IMG/VR virus record: IMGVR_UViG_3300042564_004235
Source: a virus
Lineage: Duplodnaviria > Heunggongvirae > Uroviricota > Caudoviricetes
DNA: 64,000 bases
Strand: one strand, 5' to 3'
Shown here: positions 5,850-55,035 of the stretch, in pieces
How positions within the stretch are numbered: position 1 is the first letter of the stretch
Layout: the number at the start of each line of letters is the position of its first letter
Translations under genes and position numbers: made by a program
Notes under the pieces: generated by a model
What the model saw: only the letters and a program-made list of their open reading frames with translations
What the model was told of the DNA's origin: nothing
Database searches by the model: none

Positions 5850-6696
5850 GCGAATTAACACCTCCCTTTCTTTAAGTGTGAAACTAAATTAAGTCATTGG
5901 GCCGTGTATGGTCCATTAAAATAAACCACGAAAGTGGGATAAAGTGAACCTAACGTGTAATGGGTTTGCGTCTTGGTGAGTCTTATGACTTGTTGAGGTC
6001 GAGTACACAAGCGGGATACCGTTTAACCTTTAGTACCGAGGGCAACGCTGTAGGGAAAGTGGTTCGACGAACTGGCAATGTGGGTTGTCAGTTTGAGGTG
6101 GGAACACCAAGAGGAATAACCCGTAGGAATTATGCAAAAAATAAGATTATCCGATTTTATTATTGCGTGTTCCATTATGATAGGGTACTTAAAACCGAAA
6201 GGTATGTTCGTGTACAGGTGGTGCTGTTACCAACCCTAATAATTCCTTACCAAAGGAATTGTTTTGAAGTAATCTTGATGTATGGAAATGGGGACATTTC
6301 ACAGAGTAGTTGAGTATCGATTCGTCCAAAAGATGGGTTGGCTCGGTTGGCAGACCACTACTTTGACAATCCACAACACACAACATTAATTTACATTAGG
6401 CTGTAAACTCTAAAAAGTAAAAATGTAAAAGTGTCTGTCAGGTTTGAATGAAAGGTGACTACATAGTAATGAGCCGTTCATTGCACACAAGGATCCCAAG
6501 TCTGAGTGTAATTATCCGAAAAACCTTTAGTCCCGCAAGGACGAACTGGGGAGGCATCCTCGGAAAGAGTCAAGTAAGGTGAGAGTAATTCAAACCTCAA
6601 GGAGTGATTCACCTAAATAATCGTCACTGAGGAATACTTCTCAAAAGGAAGTGGATAAGAGTAGAATAAATAATGACTCTAAAGGTTCTCAATAAC
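5850..6696 (+). ncRNA. candidate large structured non-coding RNA (GC-rich block, unknown family)
   Basis: About 50% GC against ~30% in the flanks. No ORF with proteome-like composition or start context. Promoter module upstream at 5764 and terminator at 6697-6720. Internal repeated segment cctttagtNccg...gacgaactgg at ~6027 and ~6527. Confidence 0.35.
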
Positions 6697-6720
6697 AGGT
6701 GTAATCTCAACCTTTTTTTA
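6697..6720 (+). terminator. rho-independent terminator
   Basis: aggtgtaatctcaacct hairpin followed by ttttttt. Confidence 0.5.
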
Positions 6721-19375: not shown

Positions 19376-19544
19376 CAAATAAACCTTACAGAAGTCCGAA
19401 TAGCGCGGATGAAAGGAACCTTGGCTCTCATAGGATCGCAACCTTTACGGAGAGTTTGAATGTCCCAAGGTACTCTGTAATGGACCCTGCTCTGATGTGC
19501 ACGTCAACAGGTGATGGGGAACAAACCATCGATCAAATCCAAAC

Positions 19545-20088: not shown

Positions 20089-20108
20089 CACAAAGTGTTC
20101 TTTGAAAA

Positions 20109-20250
20109 TATTGATAGTGGACGCCTCTACTTATGTTGTCGACGAACTAGGTAGGTCAAGGATAGTCATCACCCTTCTGCCGGTGCACCCTAAAACTCGG
20201 GCAAGCAGTTAAGATTGGAGCGAGACCGGGTACTCCATCACTATCAATAA
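20109..20250 (+). ncRNA. candidate structured RNA element closed by a long-range helix
   Basis: tattgatagtgga ... tccatcactatcaata terminal inverted repeat around ~140 nt of GC-rich non-coding sequence. Confidence 0.2.
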
Positions 20251-20254
20251 TATT

Positions 20255-20357
20255 GTGTTGTTCCCTTGAGAAAGGAAATATAAAGATGAGTGACATTACT
20301 TGAATTATGGAAAACATAATCGTACACTACAACACAGAGGATTTCAACCTCAAATTT
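20255..20357. repeat. repeat B (structured element, copy 2 of 2)
   Basis: Shares gtgttgttcccttgagaaaggaa, the closing helix partner acaacac and caacctcaaattt with copy A. Lies directly upstream of the nuclease-like gene. Confidence 0.5.
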
Positions 20358-20494
20358 GGTAAATGTAATTAGGAGGTAAAAGTGAAATTCTTACCTTAAT
20401 TAGTGTAGGTGTATCAGCAACCTAATTACATTACCTTTATAATCAGGTAACACCTTTGTCCTGTATTGTGATATTTATTAATAAACTAAATATT

Positions 20495-20881
20495 ATGAAA
20501 ACACAAGGTGATAATGCTGAACTTAAATTTATGTTATTCAGTTATGAATTAGGATATATAATATCAAAACCATTTGGGGATAATAGTAAGTATGATTTAA
20601 TAATTGATAACGGAGATTCTTTAGAAAGAATACAAATAAAATCAACAAGTAGAAAAGACACTTCATCCGGAATGGATTGTTATAGTTGTTCTGTTTGCTC
20701 AGGGTCAAAATTGAAAAAAAAATATAACGAAAAAGATGTTGACTTTATTGTTATTTATGTGATACCTGAAAATACTTGGTATAAAATACCAACAAAAGAA
20801 ATAAAAGGAAAGACAGTAAAATTATACCCCCATAGGAAATCACAAAGAAACACCTATGAAAAGTATAGAATCTTGTCCTGA
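20495..20881 (+). CDS. PD-(D/E)xK-like nuclease with Zn-ribbon insert (tentative)
   Basis: First ATG in good context is 20495 (MKTQGDNAELKF). Pattern E..(20)..YDLIID..(8)..ERIQIKS resembles D...(D/E)xK cores. CYSCSVCSG Cys cluster. Confidence 0.35.
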   Translation: MKTQGDNAELKFMLFSYELGYIISKPFGDNSKYDLIIDNGDSLERIQIKSTSRKDTSSGMDCYSCSVCSGSKLKKKYNEKDVDFIVIYVIPENTWYKIPTKEIKGKTVKLYPHRKSQRNTYEKYRILS

Positions 20882-20934
20882 CTACGTGGGAAAGATTCAT
20901 CCCGAAATTAGAACATGGATCACAAACACGTAAA

Positions 20935-21007
20935 CCTAAGTACCCATACCGCTGACGGTGGGCTAAGTAAGATACAATTTCGTACCGCGGGAAGTAGAAT
21001 GCTTAGG
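20935..21007. repeat. tRNA-sized structured element C (paralog of D)
   Basis: 73 nt closed by CCTAAGT/GCTTAGG. Shares gggctaagt.a.atacaatt and gggagtagaatgctt with D. Confidence 0.45.
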
Positions 21008-21108
21008 AGCGTGTTTTTAAATTATAAAAAATTATGACACCATTATTGTTTTTAATATTTATTTTATTTATCTTTGGGGTAAGAAAAAGAAGATAAGTTT
21101 TTGATAAA

Positions 21109-21184
21109 CTCAAGTACCTGTACAGCGGTGAGTAACGGGCTAAGTTATATACAATTCCTCGGAGCTGGGAGTAGAATGCTTGAG
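21109..21184. repeat. tRNA-sized structured element D (paralog of C)
   Basis: 76 nt closed by CTCAAGT/GCTTGAG, a compensatory double change relative to C that keeps the terminal helix. Confidence 0.45.
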
Positions 21185-21195
21185 AGTCAAAGGTT

Positions 21196-21311
21196 GGTCA
21201 GGAGCGTAATGAGGCACGGTGCCGAGTCCTAAAAGTACCACGGTCCATAAGCAATTGGACGCGAGAAACTATAAAGGTTGCTCATTGTGGGTTCGAATCC
21301 CACCCTGACAT
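21196..21311 (+). ncRNA. 116-nt tRNA-like element with internal insertion
   Basis: Acceptor GGTCAGG/CCTGACA (one mismatch at 1:72) and perfect T-arm GTGGG-TTCGAAT-CCCAC. About 45 nt of excess internal sequence with hairpins GGCA-cgg-TGCC and GTCC..GGAC. Confidence 0.3.
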
Positions 21312-21476
21312 CACCGGTTACTTGATTCCTGGTAGTAGAGTAACAACCATTGGGGAATTCGGGATGTCCCGCGAATGGTGGTGTAAGATAAGAGAAACTT
21401 ACAACGGTAGAGTACCATAAACAAAAGAAACAAGACGTAGAGGTGACTCTGCGTTGGCGCAAATCTCTACCAACTT

Positions 21477-21568
21477 AGTCAGGTTGGTACAAGGTCGGTT
21501 CGAGTCCGATGGAAGGTCATGGATGTCGGGTAGCTCCCTGTAGAGAGGTTCGATTCCTCTCCTGACTA
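21477..21568 (+). ncRNA. 92-nt tRNA-like element (possible type II; internal Ser(CGA)-like hairpin)
   Basis: Perfect acceptor AGTCAGG/CCTGACT and T-arm AGAGG-TTCGATT-CCTCT. Internal hairpin GTCGG-ttCGAgt-CCGAT. Arms cannot be placed unambiguously. Confidence 0.3.
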
Positions 21569-21607
21569 CACTTGACATTATTAAATTAATGTCTTATTAT
21601 TATACAA

Positions 21608-21680
21608 AACCGGGTAGCTCAGCTGGTAGAGCAATCCTTTTTAAACAGGACGTGTCATTGGTTCAATCCCTTTCCCGGTT
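21608..21680 (+). tRNA. degenerate tRNA-like (perfect acceptor and D-arm, weak anticodon and T stems)
   Basis: Acceptor AACCGGG/CCCGGTT, canonical TA-GCTC-agctggta-GAGC. Anticodon region only pairs as TCCT/AGGA with an 8-nt loop ttttaaac. T-stem ATTGG/CCTTT is poor. Followed by a T-run. Confidence 0.35.
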
Positions 21681-21705
21681 TTTTTATTTATAAAATTAAA
21701 ATATT

Positions 21706-21912
21706 ATGAAAAAGTTTCTTTTATTGGTTTTGTCTTATGTTCTGTCATTCAGTATTGTTTGGATTGGTTTGGGGTTGTTCAAATACTATTTGGAATCAGA
21801 ATCATCAATCGGAACTTTTTTAATTGGATTAGTTGGTTTTTTCGTTGCCATTAATCCTGCTATGGATGTATGGGAAAAATTATTCAAACGCTGGTTTAAA
21901 ATCAAAGAATAA
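21706..21912 (+). CDS. small membrane protein
   Basis: Two hydrophobic segments (LLLVLSYVLSFSIVWIGLGLF and FLIGLVGFFVAINPAM). Confidence 0.45.
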   Translation: MKKFLLLVLSYVLSFSIVWIGLGLFKYYLESESSIGTFLIGLVGFFVAINPAMDVWEKLFKRWFKIKE

Positions 21913-22094
21913 TAATTTAATAGTATGATCCACTCAAGAGGAGTGTTGGAACGGAGTTTGTTAATCTATTTATAAAAAAAACACTATGGAAATAATTATC
22001 GCATGTTTAGTACCGATCGCGTTGATAGGTATTATGGTAGTATCTTATTTGACCTACAAGGGGAGATAAAAAAAGGGACCGAAGTCCCTTTATG

Positions 22095-22703
22095 TTATTT
22101 AATGTCTGTTGACTCTATTAGAGTATATGAAAACTTGTTTCCGTGAATTTTAGATGCCTTCTTACATAAAGACATAAACACATCAAAGTCTTTTACTCTT
22201 TTAAATACTTGACAACCCTCACTCCAATTTTCTACCCACTGAGAGTCTTGACCTGCTTTGTGGATGTTAATACCAAAAATACCTGTATCAGTTTTTGTTT
22301 CTTCAAAAATAAGGTCTTTGTTTACATCTCTCCAAACAGTTACATTACCAAGTCTTTGACAAAGAGCTTCGTATTTTCCTTGATGCAAATCAATTTTCCA
22401 TACGCCTCTGTATTGTCCCGGTACTAATCTTGCAACACCATTTTTGTTATGGAATTGTTGTACACCCTTTTTACCTGGATCACATGTTGCCATCCAACAA
22501 TAGTATTGCCAAGCACCTTTTTCATCTTTAAATGATAATGTAAGGTGATCATCAAACACGTTTGTTACTTTTTTTGCAACTGAAGGTGCGTTATTTCTTA
22601 CTCCTACGATATTCACATCGTAACTTTTGTTGTTTGCGTCTTCAAACCAAACATACCCTTTGGCTTTTACGGCAGCCTCAACCTGTTCTCTTGTGTAACT
22701 CAT
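22095..22703 (-). CDS. hypothetical protein with L,D-transpeptidase-like (YkuD-type) His/Cys motif
   Basis: GINIHKAG ...(~16 aa)... SEGCQVFKR resembles the YkuD catalytic signature H..S.GC.R. Only minus-strand gene in this region. Confidence 0.4.
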   Translation of the reverse strand: MSYTREQVEAAVKAKGYVWFEDANNKSYDVNIVGVRNNAPSVAKKVTNVFDDHLTLSFKDEKGAWQYYCWMATCDPGKKGVQQFHNKNGVARLVPGQYRGVWKIDLHQGKYEALCQRLGNVTVWRDVNKDLIFEETKTDTGIFGINIHKAGQDSQWVENWSEGCQVFKRVKDFDVFMSLCKKASKIHGNKFSYTLIESTDIK

Positions 22704-22770: not shown

Positions 22771-24369
22771 ATGATTAAAAAACGTAAACTATTAATAATA
22801 CCATCTGTAATATTGATGGTTATTTTTCTTTTAACTAAAATTTTTGTTTTATCGGGTCTTATTGAAGCCACTGATATAACAAGAATTATTGAGATATCTT
22901 GCTTTTTATTATTTTCCCCATTATTTTATTTCTTAATGAAATCTCAAACCGTAGAATTAAAAGGTGAATTATTAAAACAAATAAAAGATAGTGAGGATTT
23001 TATTGATTCTGCAACCATTGTTTCTGTTGCCGATAAATACGGTAAAATTACATACGTTAATAAAAAATTTGAGGAGGTTTCAGGTTGGTCTTTAGATGAG
23101 GTTAAAGGTGAAGATCATAGTGTTGTTAACTCTGGATTACAACCTGATGGGTATTGGGGTAAGATGTATGAAACCGTTATGAAAGGTGAGATATGGAATG
23201 ATGTTGTGACCAATAAAGGAAAGTCAGGAGAACTTTATTATGTTGATACATATATTAAGGCAAAATTTGACAAGAATGGTAAGTTGGAAGGGTTTTCATC
23301 AATTAGACAAGACGTTACGGAGCTTAAGAAAAAAGAAGTGGAAATTCGTAATAGAATGAACGCAATAAATAAATCTAATGCTGTTATTGAGTTTGATTTG
23401 GAAGGAAACATAATTTTTGCTAACGAATTGTTTTTAACAACTATGGGTTATTCATCAATTGATGAAGTTGCAGGAAAACACCATAGAATTTTTATAGACG
23501 AAGACCATTCAAAAAGTGAGGAGTATTCACTTTTTTGGAAAAAATTAAATGACGGTATATTATTTACTGGTGAAATCACTAGAGTTAAAAAAGATGGTTC
23601 TTTAGTTCATCTACAAGCAACATACAATCCGATTGTTGGTTTGGATGGTAAGATTTATCGTGTTATGAAAATAGCAACAGATGTTACCAATTCTTACGAA
23701 CAAAAGAAAGAGATTGAAAAGAAAAATACCTATTTAGAACATGCGGCAAAGATATTAAGACACGATATGCACTCAGGTATCAATACATATATGCCAAGAG
23801 GGTTAAGTTCTTTAGAGAGAAGATTAAAACCCGAAGACATATCCGATTTAAAAATAGAGGCACCAATTAGAATGATTAAGGAAGGTCTTAAACATTCACA
23901 AAAAGTGTATAAAGGGGTATATGAGTTTACAAATCTTGTTAAAAAAGACGTTGTCTTAAATAAATCGGAATGTGATTTAAAAGTGATCCTATCTGATTAT
24001 CTATCATCAACCGCATATAGTAGTCAAGTTATTATTGAGGACTTACCAACAATAGAAGTAAACGAGGCGTTATTTTGTACTGCAGTAGATAACCTTATTA
24101 GGAATGGTTTAAAGTATAATGATTCTGACACTAAGTTTGTTAAAATTTATTATGATGAGAATAATATATACATTCAAGATAATGGTAGGGGAATCACACA
24201 ACAAGATTTTGATCACCTACGTAAACCATACGTAAGAAAAGAAGGACAAACAGAATCAGGTACTGGTTTGGGATTAAATATTTGCGTTGCAATTTTAGAA
24301 GAACACAGGTTTACTATTACTTGTGAGAAGAATGAAATAGGAACAAAAATGAAAATAAAAATAAAATAA
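22771..24369 (+). CDS. membrane-anchored PAS-domain sensor histidine kinase
   Basis: Two N-terminal TM helices. PAS-like repeats (GKITYVNKKFEEVSGWSLDEV, NIIFANELFLTTMGYSSIDEV). H-box AAKILRHDMHSGIN. N-box DNLIRNGLKYN. G1 DNGRGI. G2 GTGLGLNI. Confidence 0.8.
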   Translation: MIKKRKLLIIPSVILMVIFLLTKIFVLSGLIEATDITRIIEISCFLLFSPLFYFLMKSQTVELKGELLKQIKDSEDFIDSATIVSVADKYGKITYVNKKFEEVSGWSLDEVKGEDHSVVNSGLQPDGYWGKMYETVMKGEIWNDVVTNKGKSGELYYVDTYIKAKFDKNGKLEGFSSIRQDVTELKKKEVEIRNRMNAINKSNAVIEFDLEGNIIFANELFLTTMGYSSIDEVAGKHHRIFIDEDHSKSEEYSLFWKKLNDGILFTGEITRVKKDGSLVHLQATYNPIVGLDGKIYRVMKIATDVTNSYEQKKEIEKKNTYLEHAAKILRHDMHSGINTYMPRGLSSLERRLKPEDISDLKIEAPIRMIKEGLKHSQKVYKGVYEFTNLVKKDVVLNKSECDLKVILSDYLSSTAYSSQVIIEDLPTIEVNEALFCTAVDNLIRNGLKYNDSDTKFVKIYYDENNIYIQDNGRGITQQDFDHLRKPYVRKEGQTESGTGLGLNICVAILEEHRFTITCEKNEIGTKMKIKIK

Positions 24370-24383
24370 AAAAAAAGAAAAAA

Positions 24384-24821
24384 ATGATTGACTCAATTTT
24401 ATTGGTAGATGATGAGGATTTATTCCATTTGGTATTTGAAGACGCTTGTTCATTACTTGACATAAGTTTGTCTTTAACCGCATTAAATAGTTCTGACGAA
24501 GCTGCAAAGAAATTTGAAAAATGGTTCAAAAGTGGGGACGATAACGATAAACCTGAATGTGTGTTTGTTGATTTAAACATTATTGGTAGTTCTTTTGATG
24601 GTATAGAATTAATTAGAAAAATTAATTTTGAATATGGTAATCACGTAGTTGTTGGTATTATATCATCGTCAAACGAACCTGAAGAACAAGCAAAGGCGGT
24701 TCAAGCCGGTGCTCAGTTTTGGATTATTAAATCTGACGATATTGAACCTCGTTTAGAAGAGTTCAGAAAAGATTATGAAGGGTATAAAAATAGAACATTA
24801 CCATTTAAAGTTTACAAATGA
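24384..24821 (+). CDS. stand-alone response-regulator receiver (CheY-like)
   Basis: ILLVDDED acidic pocket, phospho-acceptor context CVFVDLNIIG, conserved T/S (IISSS) and K (WIIKSD). Confidence 0.7.
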   Translation: MIDSILLVDDEDLFHLVFEDACSLLDISLSLTALNSSDEAAKKFEKWFKSGDDNDKPECVFVDLNIIGSSFDGIELIRKINFEYGNHVVVGIISSSNEPEEQAKAVQAGAQFWIIKSDDIEPRLEEFRKDYEGYKNRTLPFKVYK

Positions 24822-53901: not shown

Positions 53902-55035
53902 ATGGAAAATTTAAATAGTGTTGCATATGTTGGTAAGATAGGTTCTATATCTGAAATACCAAACGCCGATAACATAGAGTTAGTTACTGTTGGTGGGTGG
54001 AACGCCATAACCAAGAAAGGCGAATACAAAGTAGACGATAAGGTTGTTGTTGCAACTACTGATGCGGTAATACCACAAGCTTTATCTGACTTGATGGAAG
54101 TAACTAACTACCTTCGTAAAGGACAAAGAGTTCGTACCGTTAAACTTCGAGGTGTTTACTCTGAATGTTTATTAATACCATTCAAATACTTGGCACCAAA
54201 ATCATTGGAGAACAACGTTAATGAAGGTGATGATATGATGGGAATACTTGGTATAACTAAATACGAACCACCAGTTAAAACCGTTCAGTTAAGTGTTGGT
54301 GGACGTAAAATAAAATACCACCAAAACCCTAACTTCAAAGTTTACTACAAGTTCCCTAACCAAAAGAACGTACCTGATATGTTCAGTGAGGAAGATGAAG
54401 TTGTTATAACTCGTAAACTTCATGGAACTAATGCTCGTTACGGTATAGTTAGAAAGAAAAAACTATCTATATGGGATCGTGTTAAAATGTTCTTTGGAAA
54501 TCAATGGGCAGCATTTGAATATGTTTATGGTTCTCATAACGTAGAAAAAGGTTCTGACTCACAAGGATTCTATGATACTGATGTGTGGAAAACTGTAGCA
54601 AACAACTACGACATAAGAGGTAAGTTGTGGGATCACGTAAAAGATACTTACGAACCACTTGACTTGACTGAAGGTGTTGTAATATACGGTGAGATATATG
54701 GTGCTGGTATACAGAAAAACTACGAGTACGGTTTGACTGATGTTAAATTTGCTGGATTTGATGTTGAAGTTGACGGAGTGTACCAACCATACATAAATGA
54801 AACGGTACATTTTGATTGTCTTCAATTACCTCAAGTTGAGTTACTATACAAAGGCATATGGGTTAAAGAAATACAAGATAGTTTTGTATTCAATAACAAC
54901 ATAGAAGGGACTAAAGTACCACACGAAGGTGTTGTTGTTAAATCTATAACTGGTGACCGTAGAAAGGTTAGTAAGGTAATAAATCCTGACTATTTAATAT
55001 ATGGTGAAAAAAATAACGTAGGTGACTCCCATTAA
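53902..55035 (+). CDS. RNA ligase, Rnl2/Rnl5-like nucleotidyltransferase
   Basis: Motif I ITRKLHGTNARYG (KxHGxN, the Rnl2-family lysine-adenylylation motif), preceded by an N-terminal ~110-aa domain as in Rnl5/NgrRnl-type ligases. Confidence 0.55.
   Translation: MENLNSVAYVGKIGSISEIPNADNIELVTVGGWNAITKKGEYKVDDKVVVATTDAVIPQALSDLMEVTNYLRKGQRVRTVKLRGVYSECLLIPFKYLAPKSLENNVNEGDDMMGILGITKYEPPVKTVQLSVGGRKIKYHQNPNFKVYYKFPNQKNVPDMFSEEDEVVITRKLHGTNARYGIVRKKKLSIWDRVKMFFGNQWAAFEYVYGSHNVEKGSDSQGFYDTDVWKTVANNYDIRGKLWDHVKDTYEPLDLTEGVVIYGEIYGAGIQKNYEYGLTDVKFAGFDVEVDGVYQPYINETVHFDCLQLPQVELLYKGIWVKEIQDSFVFNNNIEGTKVPHEGVVVKSITGDRRKVSKVINPDYLIYGEKNNVGDSH

What the first reader, a model, noticed from the sequence alone, without database searches (positions are those of the whole stretch)
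20935..21184. Two paralogous tRNA-sized structured elements with compensatory changes in the closing helix
Element C (20935-21007, 73 nt) is closed by CCTAAGT/GCTTAGG. Element D (21109-21184, 76 nt) is closed by CTCAAGT/GCTTGAG. Two positions changed on both strands so pairing is maintained, the classic signature of selection on RNA secondary structure.

Both share internal blocks (gggctaagt.a.atacaatt and gggagtagaatgctt) and lie in the tRNA island. Neither folds as a cloverleaf. They flank a 20-codon hydrophobic mini-ORF (21034-21096).
Basis: seen in the sequence. Interest (0 to 1): 0.65.

Follow-up and report, generated by a model that had tools for sequence, protein, structure and literature searches.

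The report
Conserved pseudoknotted RNA in phage tRNA-islands
The two flagged elements are copies of a previously uncatalogued, very strongly conserved ~95-nt folded RNA that large freshwater phages carry inside their tRNA gene clusters; its job is unknown, but its conservation makes it a good candidate for a new functional RNA class.

Summary
Both elements are real and are two copies of one RNA family.

**Structure.** 92 distinct copies align. Every helix that varies shows compensatory changes (29 P1 and 52 P0 haplotypes). 92.7% of cells pair, against about 40% in slid controls. The fold is P0, an internal loop and P1, closing a double pseudoknot: P2/P3 plus CCC:GGG (invariant, inferred) and AUUC:GAGU.

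**Strand and context.** Invariant G·U pairs put the RNA on the tRNA strand, and 739 of 749 neighbouring tRNAs are co-oriented. About a quarter of copies abut a tRNA end.

**Negative searches.** There is no Rfam 15 family, no tRNA call and no match in cultured phages. There is no homology with T4 rnaC/rnaD, no linked protein gene and nothing in the searched literature.

**Best reading.** This is a new family of stable non-coding RNA carried in the tRNA operons of GOLLD-bearing freshwater phages. It is probably cut out by tRNA-processing enzymes and acts in trans through its near-invariant core. The function is open; a ribozyme, a tRNA-directed binder or decoy, or a ligand sponge are all possible.

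The parts
20924..21016 (+). Element C, full family member (P0 to P0')
   Evidence: R1 covariance-model hit 20921-21025, 110.5 bits; row 1 of alignment A2.
21098..21193 (+). Element D, full family member (P0 to P0')
   Evidence: R1 hit 21095-21202, 103.2 bits; row 2 of A2. In related loci the mini-ORF is followed directly by the tRNA-like unit, so D is an extra copy in the window/L074 lineage.
20924..20930 (+). C: P0 5' strand AAACACG, pairs with 21010-21016 CGTGTTT; internal loop TAAA (20931-20934) / AG (21008-21009)
   Evidence: All 7 P0 pairs show double changes; 52 haplotypes.
20935..20942 (+).
   Evidence: 6 of 8 pairs covary; 97.8% of cells paired; U23.G88 wobble in 91 of 92 copies.
20943..20947 (+). 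C: pseudoknot PKa 5' strand CCCAT, pairs with GTGGG 20958-20962
   Evidence: CCC:GGG is invariant, so it is inferred and not tested. RNAalifold predicts it independently. The extension pair 28:45 is AU 49 / GC 14 / 26 unpaired.
20949..20957 (+). C: P2 5' (CCGC 20949-20952) and P3 5' (ACG 20955-20957), pairing with CGT 20981-20983 and GCGG 20987-20990
   Evidence: 32:76 AU 56 / CG 26 / UA 9; 39:70 GC 60 / AU 30; 40:68 AU 60 / CG 32.
20963..20980 (+). C: near-invariant strand CTAAGTAAGATACA (lone pair C20963:G20967 closing TAA) followed by PKb 5' strand ATTT (20977-20980), which pairs with AAGT 20992-20995; AGAA linker 20996-20999
   Evidence: With an anchor that does not constrain the block, 31 of 44 copies have it exactly and the rest differ by 1-2 nt. 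C49 to U co-occurs with G53 to A. 66:79 is CG 72 / UA 18.
21109..21184 (+). D: P1-bounded core. P1 21109-21116/21177-21184; PKa 21117-21121/21135-21139; P2 21123-21126/21164-21167; P3 21130-21132/21158-21160; invariant strand 21140-21153; PKb 21154-21157/21169-21172
   Evidence: Same columns of A2 as for C.
21034..21096 (+). Conserved 20-codon hydrophobic mini-ORF (MTPLLFLIFILFIFGVRKRR*) between C and D. It is a neighbour, not part of the RNA.
   Evidence: Same-length peptides with conservative substitutions follow the RNA element in L074, L051, L058, L092, L079, L002 and L007.
21197..21310 (+). tRNA-like unit directly 3' of D: GTCAGG acceptor 5' strand, T arm GTGGGTTCGAATCCCAC, CCTGAC-A. This is the presumed RNase P substrate that defines D's 3' end.
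   Evidence: Acceptor and T-arm fold, -37.4 kcal/mol, z = -2.73. It belongs to a family of such units in the related loci. ARAGORN does not call it.

Best explanation
C and D are two copies of a new family of about 95-105-nt non-coding RNAs. The family is encoded on the tRNA strand inside the tRNA islands of large, uncultivated, freshwater-type phages, the same phages that carry GOLLD RNA and tmRNA.

**Fold.** Two stacked closing helices, P0 (free in sequence) and P1, clamp the ends. Inside them, about 63 nt with 39 near-invariant positions form a compact double pseudoknot. This can be read as two hairpins whose loops kiss through P2 and P3. They are joined by an invariant 14-nt strand, CUAAGUNANAUACA, and an AGAA linker.

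**Proposed mechanism.** The first three steps are inferred.
1. The element is co-transcribed with the tRNAs.
2. It is released when host RNase P cuts at the 5' end of the next tRNA or tRNA-like unit, and the tRNA 3'-end machinery (RNase Z or E plus exonucleases) cuts behind the preceding one.
3. P0 and P1 then protect its ends, so it accumulates as a stable small RNA.
4. The invariant core acts in trans as a specific binding or catalytic module directed at a conserved host or phage component. This last step is a guess.

**Shown:** family membership, strand, the helices P0, P1, P2, P3 and one pair of PKb, and the tRNA-array context.
**Not shown:** transcription, processing, the CCC:GGG pairing, and the target.
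For: A further ~57 contigs came from an independent anchor.

**Structure.** 92 distinct copies are 92.7% paired, against 39-46% for slid controls. The covariation score is 0.45 against 0.06-0.12, and 0 of 500 shuffles reach it. There are 29 P1 and 52 P0 haplotypes, nearly all fully paired. RNAalifold independently recovers P0, P1, CCC:GGG and AUUCC:GGAGU. Two loci carry an extra hairpin inserted in the P2/P3 internal loop, which fits that loop facing the solvent.

**RNA level and strand.** U23.G88 occurs in 91 of 92 copies and U64.G81 in 92 of 92. On the other strand these would be A.C mismatches.

**Context.** 739 of 749 ARAGORN tRNAs in 120 loci are co-oriented with the element. 33 of 125 copies have a tRNA 3' end within 60 nt upstream of the core block, most of them at 37-41 nt, or 27-28 nt where P0 is absent. 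28 of 125 have a tRNA start within 70 nt downstream, most at 42-48 or 33-36 nt. In L046 the element exactly fills the tRNA-Leu/tRNA-His gap. 37 of 99 distinct copies are followed by a GTCAGG-type tRNA-like 5' end.

**Independence from tRNAs.** Some copies (L011, L211) have no tRNA nearby. That favours a role for the RNA itself over a role as a pure tRNA-processing aid.

**No protein partner.** No protein family is co-located in more than 13% of loci.

**Precedent.** The T4 tRNA cluster holds the small stable RNAs rnaC and rnaD next to tRNA-Arg and a homing endonuclease. That they are processed from the tRNA precursor is from my own knowledge.
Against: - No expression or end-mapping data were available, so transcription and processing rest on position alone.
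- Element C in this window is not flanked by a canonical tRNA. It follows a degenerate tRNA-like 3' end by 39 nt and precedes a mini-ORF.
- CCC:GGG and three of the four PKb pairs never vary, so those pairings are untested. Two odd copies (L298 with GGA, L301 with GAAAG) break them.
- Nothing indicates what the core binds. No antisense target above chance was found in the window.
- The alignment was gathered with exact patterns, which inflates apparent conservation of the anchored blocks. controls for this only in part.
Confidence: 0.5

Rival explanations
1. It is a new class of self-cleaving ribozyme. It would cut at or near its own boundary to help mature the neighbouring tRNAs or tRNA-like RNAs, as HDV-like theta ribozymes do behind phage suppressor tRNAs.
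For: The element is small, pseudoknotted and has 39 near-invariant positions in a ~63-nt core. P0-less copies start 2-3 nt after a tRNA 3' end. Theta ribozymes (PMC10879173, found) are a precedent for ribozymes behind phage tRNAs.
Against: No Rfam ribozyme model matches even at E <= 10. The P0/P1 internal loop UAAAC/AG, the obvious candidate site, is not kept in the TTCAGG-type copies. Several copies have no tRNA nearby. The helix order differs from twister and HDV folds, judged by reading against remembered topologies.
Confidence: 0.12
2. It is a tRNA-directed RNA. Either it is a decoy or mimic that titrates a host tRNA-targeting defence nuclease or tRNA-processing enzyme, or it is an RNA that docks on tRNAs or tRNA-like scaffolds, for example at the elbow.
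For: It is exclusively associated with tRNA islands and with unusual non-decoding tRNA-like scaffold units. It is tRNA-sized with two kissing hairpins closed by a stem. The invariant strand contains a covarying lone pair that closes a triloop (C-UAA-G), followed by U-N-A-N-A. That resembles T-loop-like modules, a resemblance from memory that was not tested. The phage encodes an RNA ligase.
Against: There is no cloverleaf, T-loop or anticodon-like arm. The stacking topology is the mirror of tRNA: the 5' strand of P1 continues into hairpin A, whereas in tRNA the 3' strand continues into the T arm. P0 buries the acceptor-like end. No defence or nuclease gene is linked.
Confidence: 0.12
3. It is a free-standing ligand-binding aptamer, an RNA sponge for a metabolite or an immune signalling nucleotide, made in bulk from the tRNA operon.
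For: The pattern of conserved unpaired nucleotides inside a pseudoknotted pocket with freely varying helices is what riboswitch aptamers look like. No protein partner gene is linked.
Against: Most loci have no expression platform and no consistent downstream gene. No known aptamer model matches. The idea has no direct support.
Confidence: 0.08
4. It is a cis-acting element. It could be a structural insulator or exonuclease block that helps neighbouring tRNAs fold and be processed, or a 5' leader that regulates the mini-ORF downstream.
For: It sits in inter-tRNA gaps. In one sub-lineage it always precedes the conserved mini-ORF by about 17-20 nt.
Against: An insulator needs stable helices, not 39 invariant core positions. 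The mini-ORF arrangement occurs in only about 8 of about 97 distinct copies. D in this window precedes a tRNA-like unit, not an ORF. The start region of the ORF does not overlap P0 or P1.
Confidence: 0.07
5. It is a DNA-level feature, such as a repeated recombination or homing-endonuclease target site, or a decayed tRNA gene, and not a functional RNA.
For: A PD-(D/E)XK homing-endonuclease-like ORF (PF11645, E 2.3e-24) lies just upstream of C. tRNA islands are mosaic.
Against: Compensatory changes keep pairing in every helix that varies. Invariant G.U wobbles are strand-specific. The endonuclease family is not co-located in other loci. No cloverleaf remnant exists.
Confidence: 0.02

Closest known systems
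Phage T4 small stable RNAs rnaC and rnaD (species 1 and 2 RNAs)
   Same: They are non-tRNA stable RNAs encoded on the tRNA strand inside a phage tRNA cluster, next to a homing endonuclease gene. Their function is unknown. From my own knowledge, they are released from the tRNA precursor.
   Different: There is no sequence or structure homology: the family model gives no hit on rnaC or rnaD with filters off. T4 rnaC carries a T-arm-like 3' end, which this element lacks.
freshwater-1 RNA motif (Rfam RF02979)
   Same: It is an orphan small structured RNA from freshwater metagenomes. A copy sits in the same tRNA island of this window, at 19476-19537 between tRNA-Gly and tRNA-Arg.
   Different: It is a different family. 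The RF02979 model does not match C or D, and there is no similarity by eye. It is 62 nt against about 95 nt.
GOLLD and ROOL large ornate RNAs
   Same: They are phage-borne, lie near tRNA islands, and have unknown function (PMC5737381, PMC12286853). GOLLD co-occurs here, at window 6302-6713 and in 3 of 10 scanned loci.
   Different: They are 400-800 nt multimerising RNAs, whereas this is a ~95-nt compact pseudoknot. There is no model match.
HDV-like theta ribozymes behind phage tRNAs (PMC10879173)
   Same: They are small double-pseudoknotted RNAs placed immediately 3' of tRNAs in phage genomes.
   Different: There is no HDV-family model hit. The order of helix strands differs, from memory of the HDV fold. 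Cleavage is untested. This element is also found without tRNAs.
Twister ribozyme
   Same: A closing stem encloses a hairpin whose loop makes two pseudoknots with the flanking joining strands. It has many invariant nucleotides and an optional outermost helix.
   Different: No twister model matches at E <= 10. The 5' strands of the pseudoknot and P2 are in the opposite order, and none of twister's conserved nucleotides are present. This comparison is from memory and is a lead only.
tRNA
   Same: It shares size, strand and position in tRNA arrays. Like tRNA it has two hairpin loops that interact, closed by a 7-8-bp stem.
   Different: There is no cloverleaf, anticodon arm or T-loop. It is not called by ARAGORN or RF00005.

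Membership tests
tRNA (RF00005 / ARAGORN) | Cloverleaf with D, anticodon and T arms; score above the model threshold | tested here: not met
   ARAGORN finds 23 tRNAs in the window, none at C or D. RF00005 gives no hit there at gathering score or at E <= 10.
Any Rfam 15 family (4227 models) | cmscan score at or above the family gathering score | tested here: not met
   No hit overlaps C or D at gathering score. Only noise appears at E 3-8. In 10 further loci only tRNA, tmRNA and GOLLD were found.
freshwater-1 (RF02979) | Match to the RF02979 covariance model | tested here: not met
   The only hit in the window is 19476-19537.
T4 rnaC / rnaD | Sequence and structure homology | tested here: not met
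   Model R1 with filters off on T4 69500-73500 gives no hit inside rnaC or rnaD. The best hits elsewhere have E 0.5-10.
T4 rnaC / rnaD (as a kind: stable RNA embedded in a phage tRNA operon) | Non-tRNA RNA gene on the tRNA strand within a tRNA cluster | tested here: met
   739 of 749 tRNAs are co-oriented, and the element abuts tRNA ends. The T4 layout is shown.
T4 rnaC / rnaD (as a kind) | Accumulates as a discrete stable RNA after processing of the tRNA precursor | not testable with these tools
   No transcriptome data were available.
Self-cleaving ribozymes (twister, HDV-like/theta, hatchet, pistol, hammerhead, hairpin) | Match to a class model or class-specific conserved nucleotides | tested here: not met
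   No ribozyme family appears among matches at E <= 10 on 20100-22300.
Self-cleaving ribozymes (any class, including a new one) | Site-specific self-cleavage | not testable with these tools
   This needs an in vitro transcription and cleavage assay.
Riboswitch | Aptamer in a 5' leader with an expression platform and a consistent downstream gene | tested here: not met
   In about a quarter of copies the nearest downstream feature is a called tRNA, and in 37 of 99 a tRNA-like unit. An ORF follows in a minority only, and it is not the same ORF.
Structured RNA under purifying selection (general) | Compensatory substitutions that maintain helices beyond controls | tested here: met
   21 of 31 pairs show double changes. 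92.7% of cells are paired, against 39-46% for slid controls. 0 of 500 shuffles reach the covariation score.

The most novel reading that the evidence does not exclude
The element is a new class of catalytic or ligand- or tRNA-binding RNA. It could be a self-cleaving ribozyme, a free-standing aptamer that soaks up a host signalling molecule, or an RNA that docks on tRNA elbows. The phage would mass-produce it by hitch-hiking on tRNA operon transcription and tRNA processing.
Probability: 0.25. Interest if true: 0.9.

Novelty: new member of a known kind. Interest (0 to 1): 0.62.

Why it matters
Phage tRNA clusters have been known for fifty years to hide small stable RNAs of unknown function, such as T4 species 1 and 2. 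More recently they were found to sit beside giant RNAs that build cages (GOLLD, ROOL).

This element adds a compact, widespread and extremely conserved member to that set. It is small enough (~95 nt) for immediate biochemistry: cleavage assays, in-line probing, pull-downs and structure determination. Few orphan RNAs combine 39 near-invariant positions with two pseudoknots and freely varying helices. In the past that profile has often marked ribozymes or aptamers.

It also comes with a natural delivery system, excision from tRNA arrays, which mirrors engineered tRNA-scaffold and tRNA-gRNA designs. The neighbouring family of non-decoding tRNA-like scaffolds suggests that these phages run a whole repertoire of tRNA-processed non-coding RNAs.

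Tried and rejected
1. **tRNA or degenerate tRNA.** Rejected by ARAGORN and Rfam.
2. **Any known RNA family.** Nothing in Rfam 15 at gathering score or at E <= 10, in the window or in 10 related loci.
3. **Cultured-phage homologues.** blastn against 50,697 GenBank phage records found nothing, even at E <= 1. No host could be read off.
4. **Bacterial genomes.** The model confirmed only 2 of 120 loci: L150, a lake MAG fragment, and L211, an 81-kb contig binned as Bacteroidia. This says little about true prevalence in genomes and cost the single genome scan.
5. **Homology with T4 rnaC/rnaD.** None.
6. **A linked protein partner.** All-against-all clustering of 2186 ORFs from 119 loci found no family in more than 16 loci.
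7. **An antisense target of the invariant strand in the window.** None above chance.
8. **Literature.** Four text searches and one sequence-string search found no description. The 2023 IMG/VR survey of 8495 candidate RNAs (PMC10690425) may contain it unnamed, but its supplements are not held.
9. **A third viral scan to find variants of the invariant GGG.** The four new copies included two that break pseudoknot pairs, which is too few to judge.
10. **K-turn or loop-E readings of the conserved loops.** Considered by eye and dropped, because the required strand arrangement is absent.
11. **Single-sequence folding as evidence.** It is weak, because the pseudoknots are not modelled.

Full report
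**1. Observation**

- C (20935-21007) and D (21109-21184) align at 80% identity.
- They share GGGCTAAGTNANATACAATT exactly. Chance expectation in the window is 0.08 matches even with 3 mismatches allowed.
- They also share GGRAGTAGAATGCTT.
- The closing helices differ at two pairs, and both are doubly compensated.
- ARAGORN (23 tRNAs, none here) and Rfam give no tRNA call and no other family. Rfam was run at gathering score on the whole window and at E <= 10 on 20100-22300.

**2. The family**

An independent anchor on the flanking conserved bases (GTACCCNNACNGC...GGGAGTAGAATGC) adds about 57 more.

Listing the flanks showed two things at once.

I aligned 92 distinct copies, with C and D as rows 1-2 (A2). 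I tested an explicit structure on that alignment:

| Helix | Result |
|---|---|
| P0 | 7 of 7 pairs with double changes |
| P1 | 6 of 8 pairs covary; 97.8% of cells paired |
| P2 | 32:76 is AU 56 / CG 26 / UA 9 |
| P3 | 39:70 is GC 60 / AU 30; 40:68 is AU 60 / CG 32 |
| PKb (AUUC:GAGU) | 66:79 is CG 72 / UA 18 |
| PKa (CCC:GGG) | never varies, apart from 10 U.G at 27:46 |

- Overall, 92.7% of cells pair, against 39-46% when the 3' partners are slid by 1-3 columns.
- The covariation score is 0.45 against 0.06-0.12, and 0 of 500 shuffles reach it.
- There are 29 P1 and 52 P0 haplotypes, almost all fully paired, so the signal does not come from one inherited change.
- RNAalifold, which cannot draw pseudoknots, chose P0, P1, CCC:GGG and AUUCC:GGAGU. 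Those are the other half of the same double pseudoknot.
- 39 columns between G22 and C89 are at least 97% conserved. Eighteen of them were imposed by the search pattern. With the independent anchor, 31 of 44 distinct copies still have the block exactly, and the others differ by 1-2 nt.
- Those variants reveal a further covarying lone pair, C49:G53 to U:A, closing a UAA triloop. They also include A63 to G, which keeps a wobble with U82.
- Invariant U.G wobbles at 23:88 and 64:81 fix the functional strand as the + strand and show that selection acts on RNA, not DNA.

**3. Anatomy in the window**

*Element C*
- P0: 20924-20930 with 21010-21016
- Internal loop: TAAA / AG
- P1: 20935-20942 with 21000-21007
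- PKa: 20943-20947 with 20958-20962
- P2: 20949-20952 with 20987-20990
- P3: 20955-20957 with 20981-20983
- Invariant strand: 20963-20976
- PKb: 20977-20980 with 20992-20995
- AGAA linker: 20996-20999

*Element D*
- P0: 21098-21104 with 21187-21193
- P1: 21109-21116 with 21177-21184
- PKa: 21117-21121 with 21135-21139
- P2: 21123-21126 with 21164-21167
- P3: 21130-21132 with 21158-21160
- Invariant strand: 21140-21153
- PKb: 21154-21157 with 21169-21172

A covariance model built from A2 (R1) finds exactly these two copies in 64 kb, at 110.5 and 103.2 bits. Between C and D, seven pairs are doubly compensated and P0 is entirely replaced.

The fold can be described in two equivalent ways. One is a hairpin (P2 and P3) whose large loop pairs with both joining strands. 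The other is two hairpins (stems PKa and PKb) whose loops kiss through P2 and P3, all closed by P1.

**4. Context**

- In 120 oriented loci, 739 of 749 ARAGORN tRNAs lie on the element's strand, and 91 of 125 copies have a tRNA within 2 kb.
- The distances have sharp modes. 33 of 125 copies have a tRNA 3' end within 60 nt upstream of the core block, most at 37-41 nt, or 27-28 nt where P0 is missing. That places the tRNA end 2-3 nt before P0 or P1.
- 28 of 125 have the next tRNA start within 70 nt downstream, most at 42-48 or 33-36 nt after the block, which is 5-11 nt after the element.
- In L046 the element exactly fills the gap between tRNA-Leu and tRNA-His.
- Where ARAGORN sees nothing, the neighbours are often unusual tRNA-like units that begin (A)GTCAGG and end CCTGACT-A. 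37 of 99 distinct copies are followed by one. D in this window is followed by one at 21197-21310, which folds with an acceptor stem and a T arm (z = -2.73).
- A few lineages carry the element with no tRNA nearby (L011, L211).
- The carrier contigs reach 295 kb. Three of ten scanned loci also hold GOLLD and three hold tmRNA. The window itself has GOLLD at 6302-6713, freshwater-1 at 19476-19537, 23 tRNAs, an RNA ligase and a DNA methylase. It is therefore a large phage of a freshwater type.
- No cultured phage in GenBank has the element.
- Two bacterial-genome records have it. One is a 4.5-kb fragment of a Swedish lake MAG. The other is an 81-kb contig binned as Bacteroidia. That is the only hint of a host.

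**5. Mechanism**

Shown:
- It is an RNA-level, strand-specific, double-pseudoknotted family.
- It sits in tRNA transcription units.
- It has no consistent protein neighbour. No ORF family occurs in more than 16 of 119 loci.
- There is no consistent downstream ORF.
- There is no antisense target in the window.

Inferred from position and from established knowledge of tRNA maturation:
- The element is co-transcribed with the tRNAs. RNase P cuts 5' of tRNAs and of acceptor/T-arm minihelices, and RNase Z or E with exonucleases trims 3' trailers. T4 species 1 and 2 RNAs come from the tRNA precursor. All of this is from my own knowledge. The neighbours' processing would therefore free the element, and P0/P1 would protect its ends.
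- What the invariant core does is unknown. Its conservation exceeds that of the surrounding tRNAs and spans phages with otherwise different flanks. That argues for recognition of a very conserved partner, or for catalysis.

I commit to a trans-acting stable RNA released by tRNA processing as the most likely reading, at 0.5 for the whole chain. The identity part alone is about 0.9.

Rivals and their weights:
- **New self-cleaving ribozyme (0.12).** Its placement behind tRNAs resembles theta ribozymes (PMC10879173). However, no class model matches, the candidate loop is not universal, and some copies lack tRNAs.
- **tRNA-directed binder or decoy (0.12).**
- **Ligand sponge (0.08).**
- **Cis-acting insulator or leader of the mini-ORF (0.07).**
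- **DNA-level site (0.02).** This is contradicted by the covariation and the G.U pairs.

**6. Comparison with known systems**

- *T4 rnaC/rnaD.* It works most like these, being a stable RNA in a phage tRNA cluster beside a homing endonuclease. It is not homologous to them.
- *freshwater-1.* It shares its habitat, and even this island, with freshwater-1, but it is not that family.
- *GOLLD.* It co-occurs with GOLLD but is a tenth of the size.
- *Twister.* Its topology recalls twister: a closing stem, a hairpin loop that makes two pseudoknots, and an optional outer helix. The strand order differs and no model matches. This is a resemblance from memory, not membership.

No paper in the searchable library describes the element. 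It may be among the unnamed candidates of PMC10690425, which I could not check.

**7. Verdict**

This is a new RNA family of a known kind: orphan structured RNAs embedded in phage tRNA islands. It has an unusually strong conservation profile. I score interest at 0.62. It would score higher if biochemistry shows catalysis or specific ligand or tRNA binding.

Noticed in passing
window 21197-21310 and 21520-21570; many loci, e.g. L029 842, L046 6116-6196 and 6565-6631, L074 2119: There is a large family of non-decoding tRNA-like 'scaffold' genes. The 5' end is (A)GTCAGG-TG-GCGGAATGGTAGACGC, a tRNA-Leu-like acceptor and D arm. A 30-90-nt hypervariable insert replaces the anticodon and variable arms. 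The 3' end is ACAGGTTCGAATCCTGT-CCTGACT-A. A second subfamily, GTCAGGAGYGTAATGAGGCAYGGTGCC...CTCATTGTGGGTTCGAATCCCACCCTGACA, is the unit right after D. ARAGORN mostly misses them or reports 2-nt 'anticodons'. Rfam tRNA scores some at 35-38 bits.
   Followed up: partly
window 21034-21096: The 20-codon mini-ORF is conserved as a peptide, MTPLL[FL]..F[IL]F..[VI]RKRR*. Nucleotide changes keep length and hydrophobicity in at least 7 related loci (L074, L051, L058, L092, L079, L002, L007). It is a likely real single-helix membrane micropeptide gene.
   Followed up: partly
window 20443-20884 (ORF 20456-20881): A PD-(D/E)XK (PF11645, I-Ssp6803I-type) homing-endonuclease-like ORF, E 2.3e-24. It appears to sit inside a degenerate tRNA-like scaffold, with AATCAGGTAAC... 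at its 5' side and ...TCTTGTCCTGACTA overlapping its stop.
   Followed up: partly
window 21572-21682: A tRNA with an 8-nt anticodon loop, which ARAGORN reports as 'ttaa' (RF00005, 42 bits). It could be an ochre or quadruplet suppressor. It is preceded by a near-consensus sigma-70-type promoter, TTGACA-17-TATTAT (11 of 12). The same arrangement occurs in L051 and L058.
   Followed up: no
window 20255-20277 and 20329-20353; L046 about 6830-6740 (minus strand); L111: Another conserved non-coding module, GTGTTGTTCCCTTGAGAAAGGAA ... ACAACACAGAGGAYTTC..CCTCAA, recurs in the tRNA islands. In about 15 loci it directly precedes the pseudoknotted element (flanks CATCCTCAA or AACCTCAA). It may be a further RNA motif.
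   Followed up: no
window 6302-6713 and 19476-19537: A GOLLD RNA (318 bits) and a freshwater-1 RNA (85 bits) lie in the same phage tRNA region. GOLLD and tmRNA also occur in several related loci.
   Followed up: partly
window 21311-21520: This is about 210 nt of non-coding sequence between two tRNA-like units. It has a further T-arm-like hairpin (GGTCGGTTCGAGTCCGATGG, around 21490-21510) and no tRNA or Rfam call. The 21197-21570 span is tmRNA-sized, but ARAGORN and Rfam do not recognise it as tmRNA.
   Followed up: no
window 22771-24369 and 24384-24821: A phage-encoded PAS-domain histidine kinase (PAS_9 2.8e-17, HATPase_c 1.9e-14). The ORF after it looks like a response-regulator receiver, judged by eye only.
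   Followed up: no
window 53902-55035: An RNA ligase with a PHA02142-type OB fold (PF09414, PF21189). It could be relevant to tRNA repair in a phage so heavily invested in tRNA-like RNAs.
   Followed up: no
L211 1-8000 (Bacteroidia MAG contig JBBALJ010000002.1): Only one ORF of at least 120 aa lies in the 8 kb around a true copy of the element. The region is either dense in small genes and non-coding RNA, or uses a reassigned stop codon.
   Followed up: no
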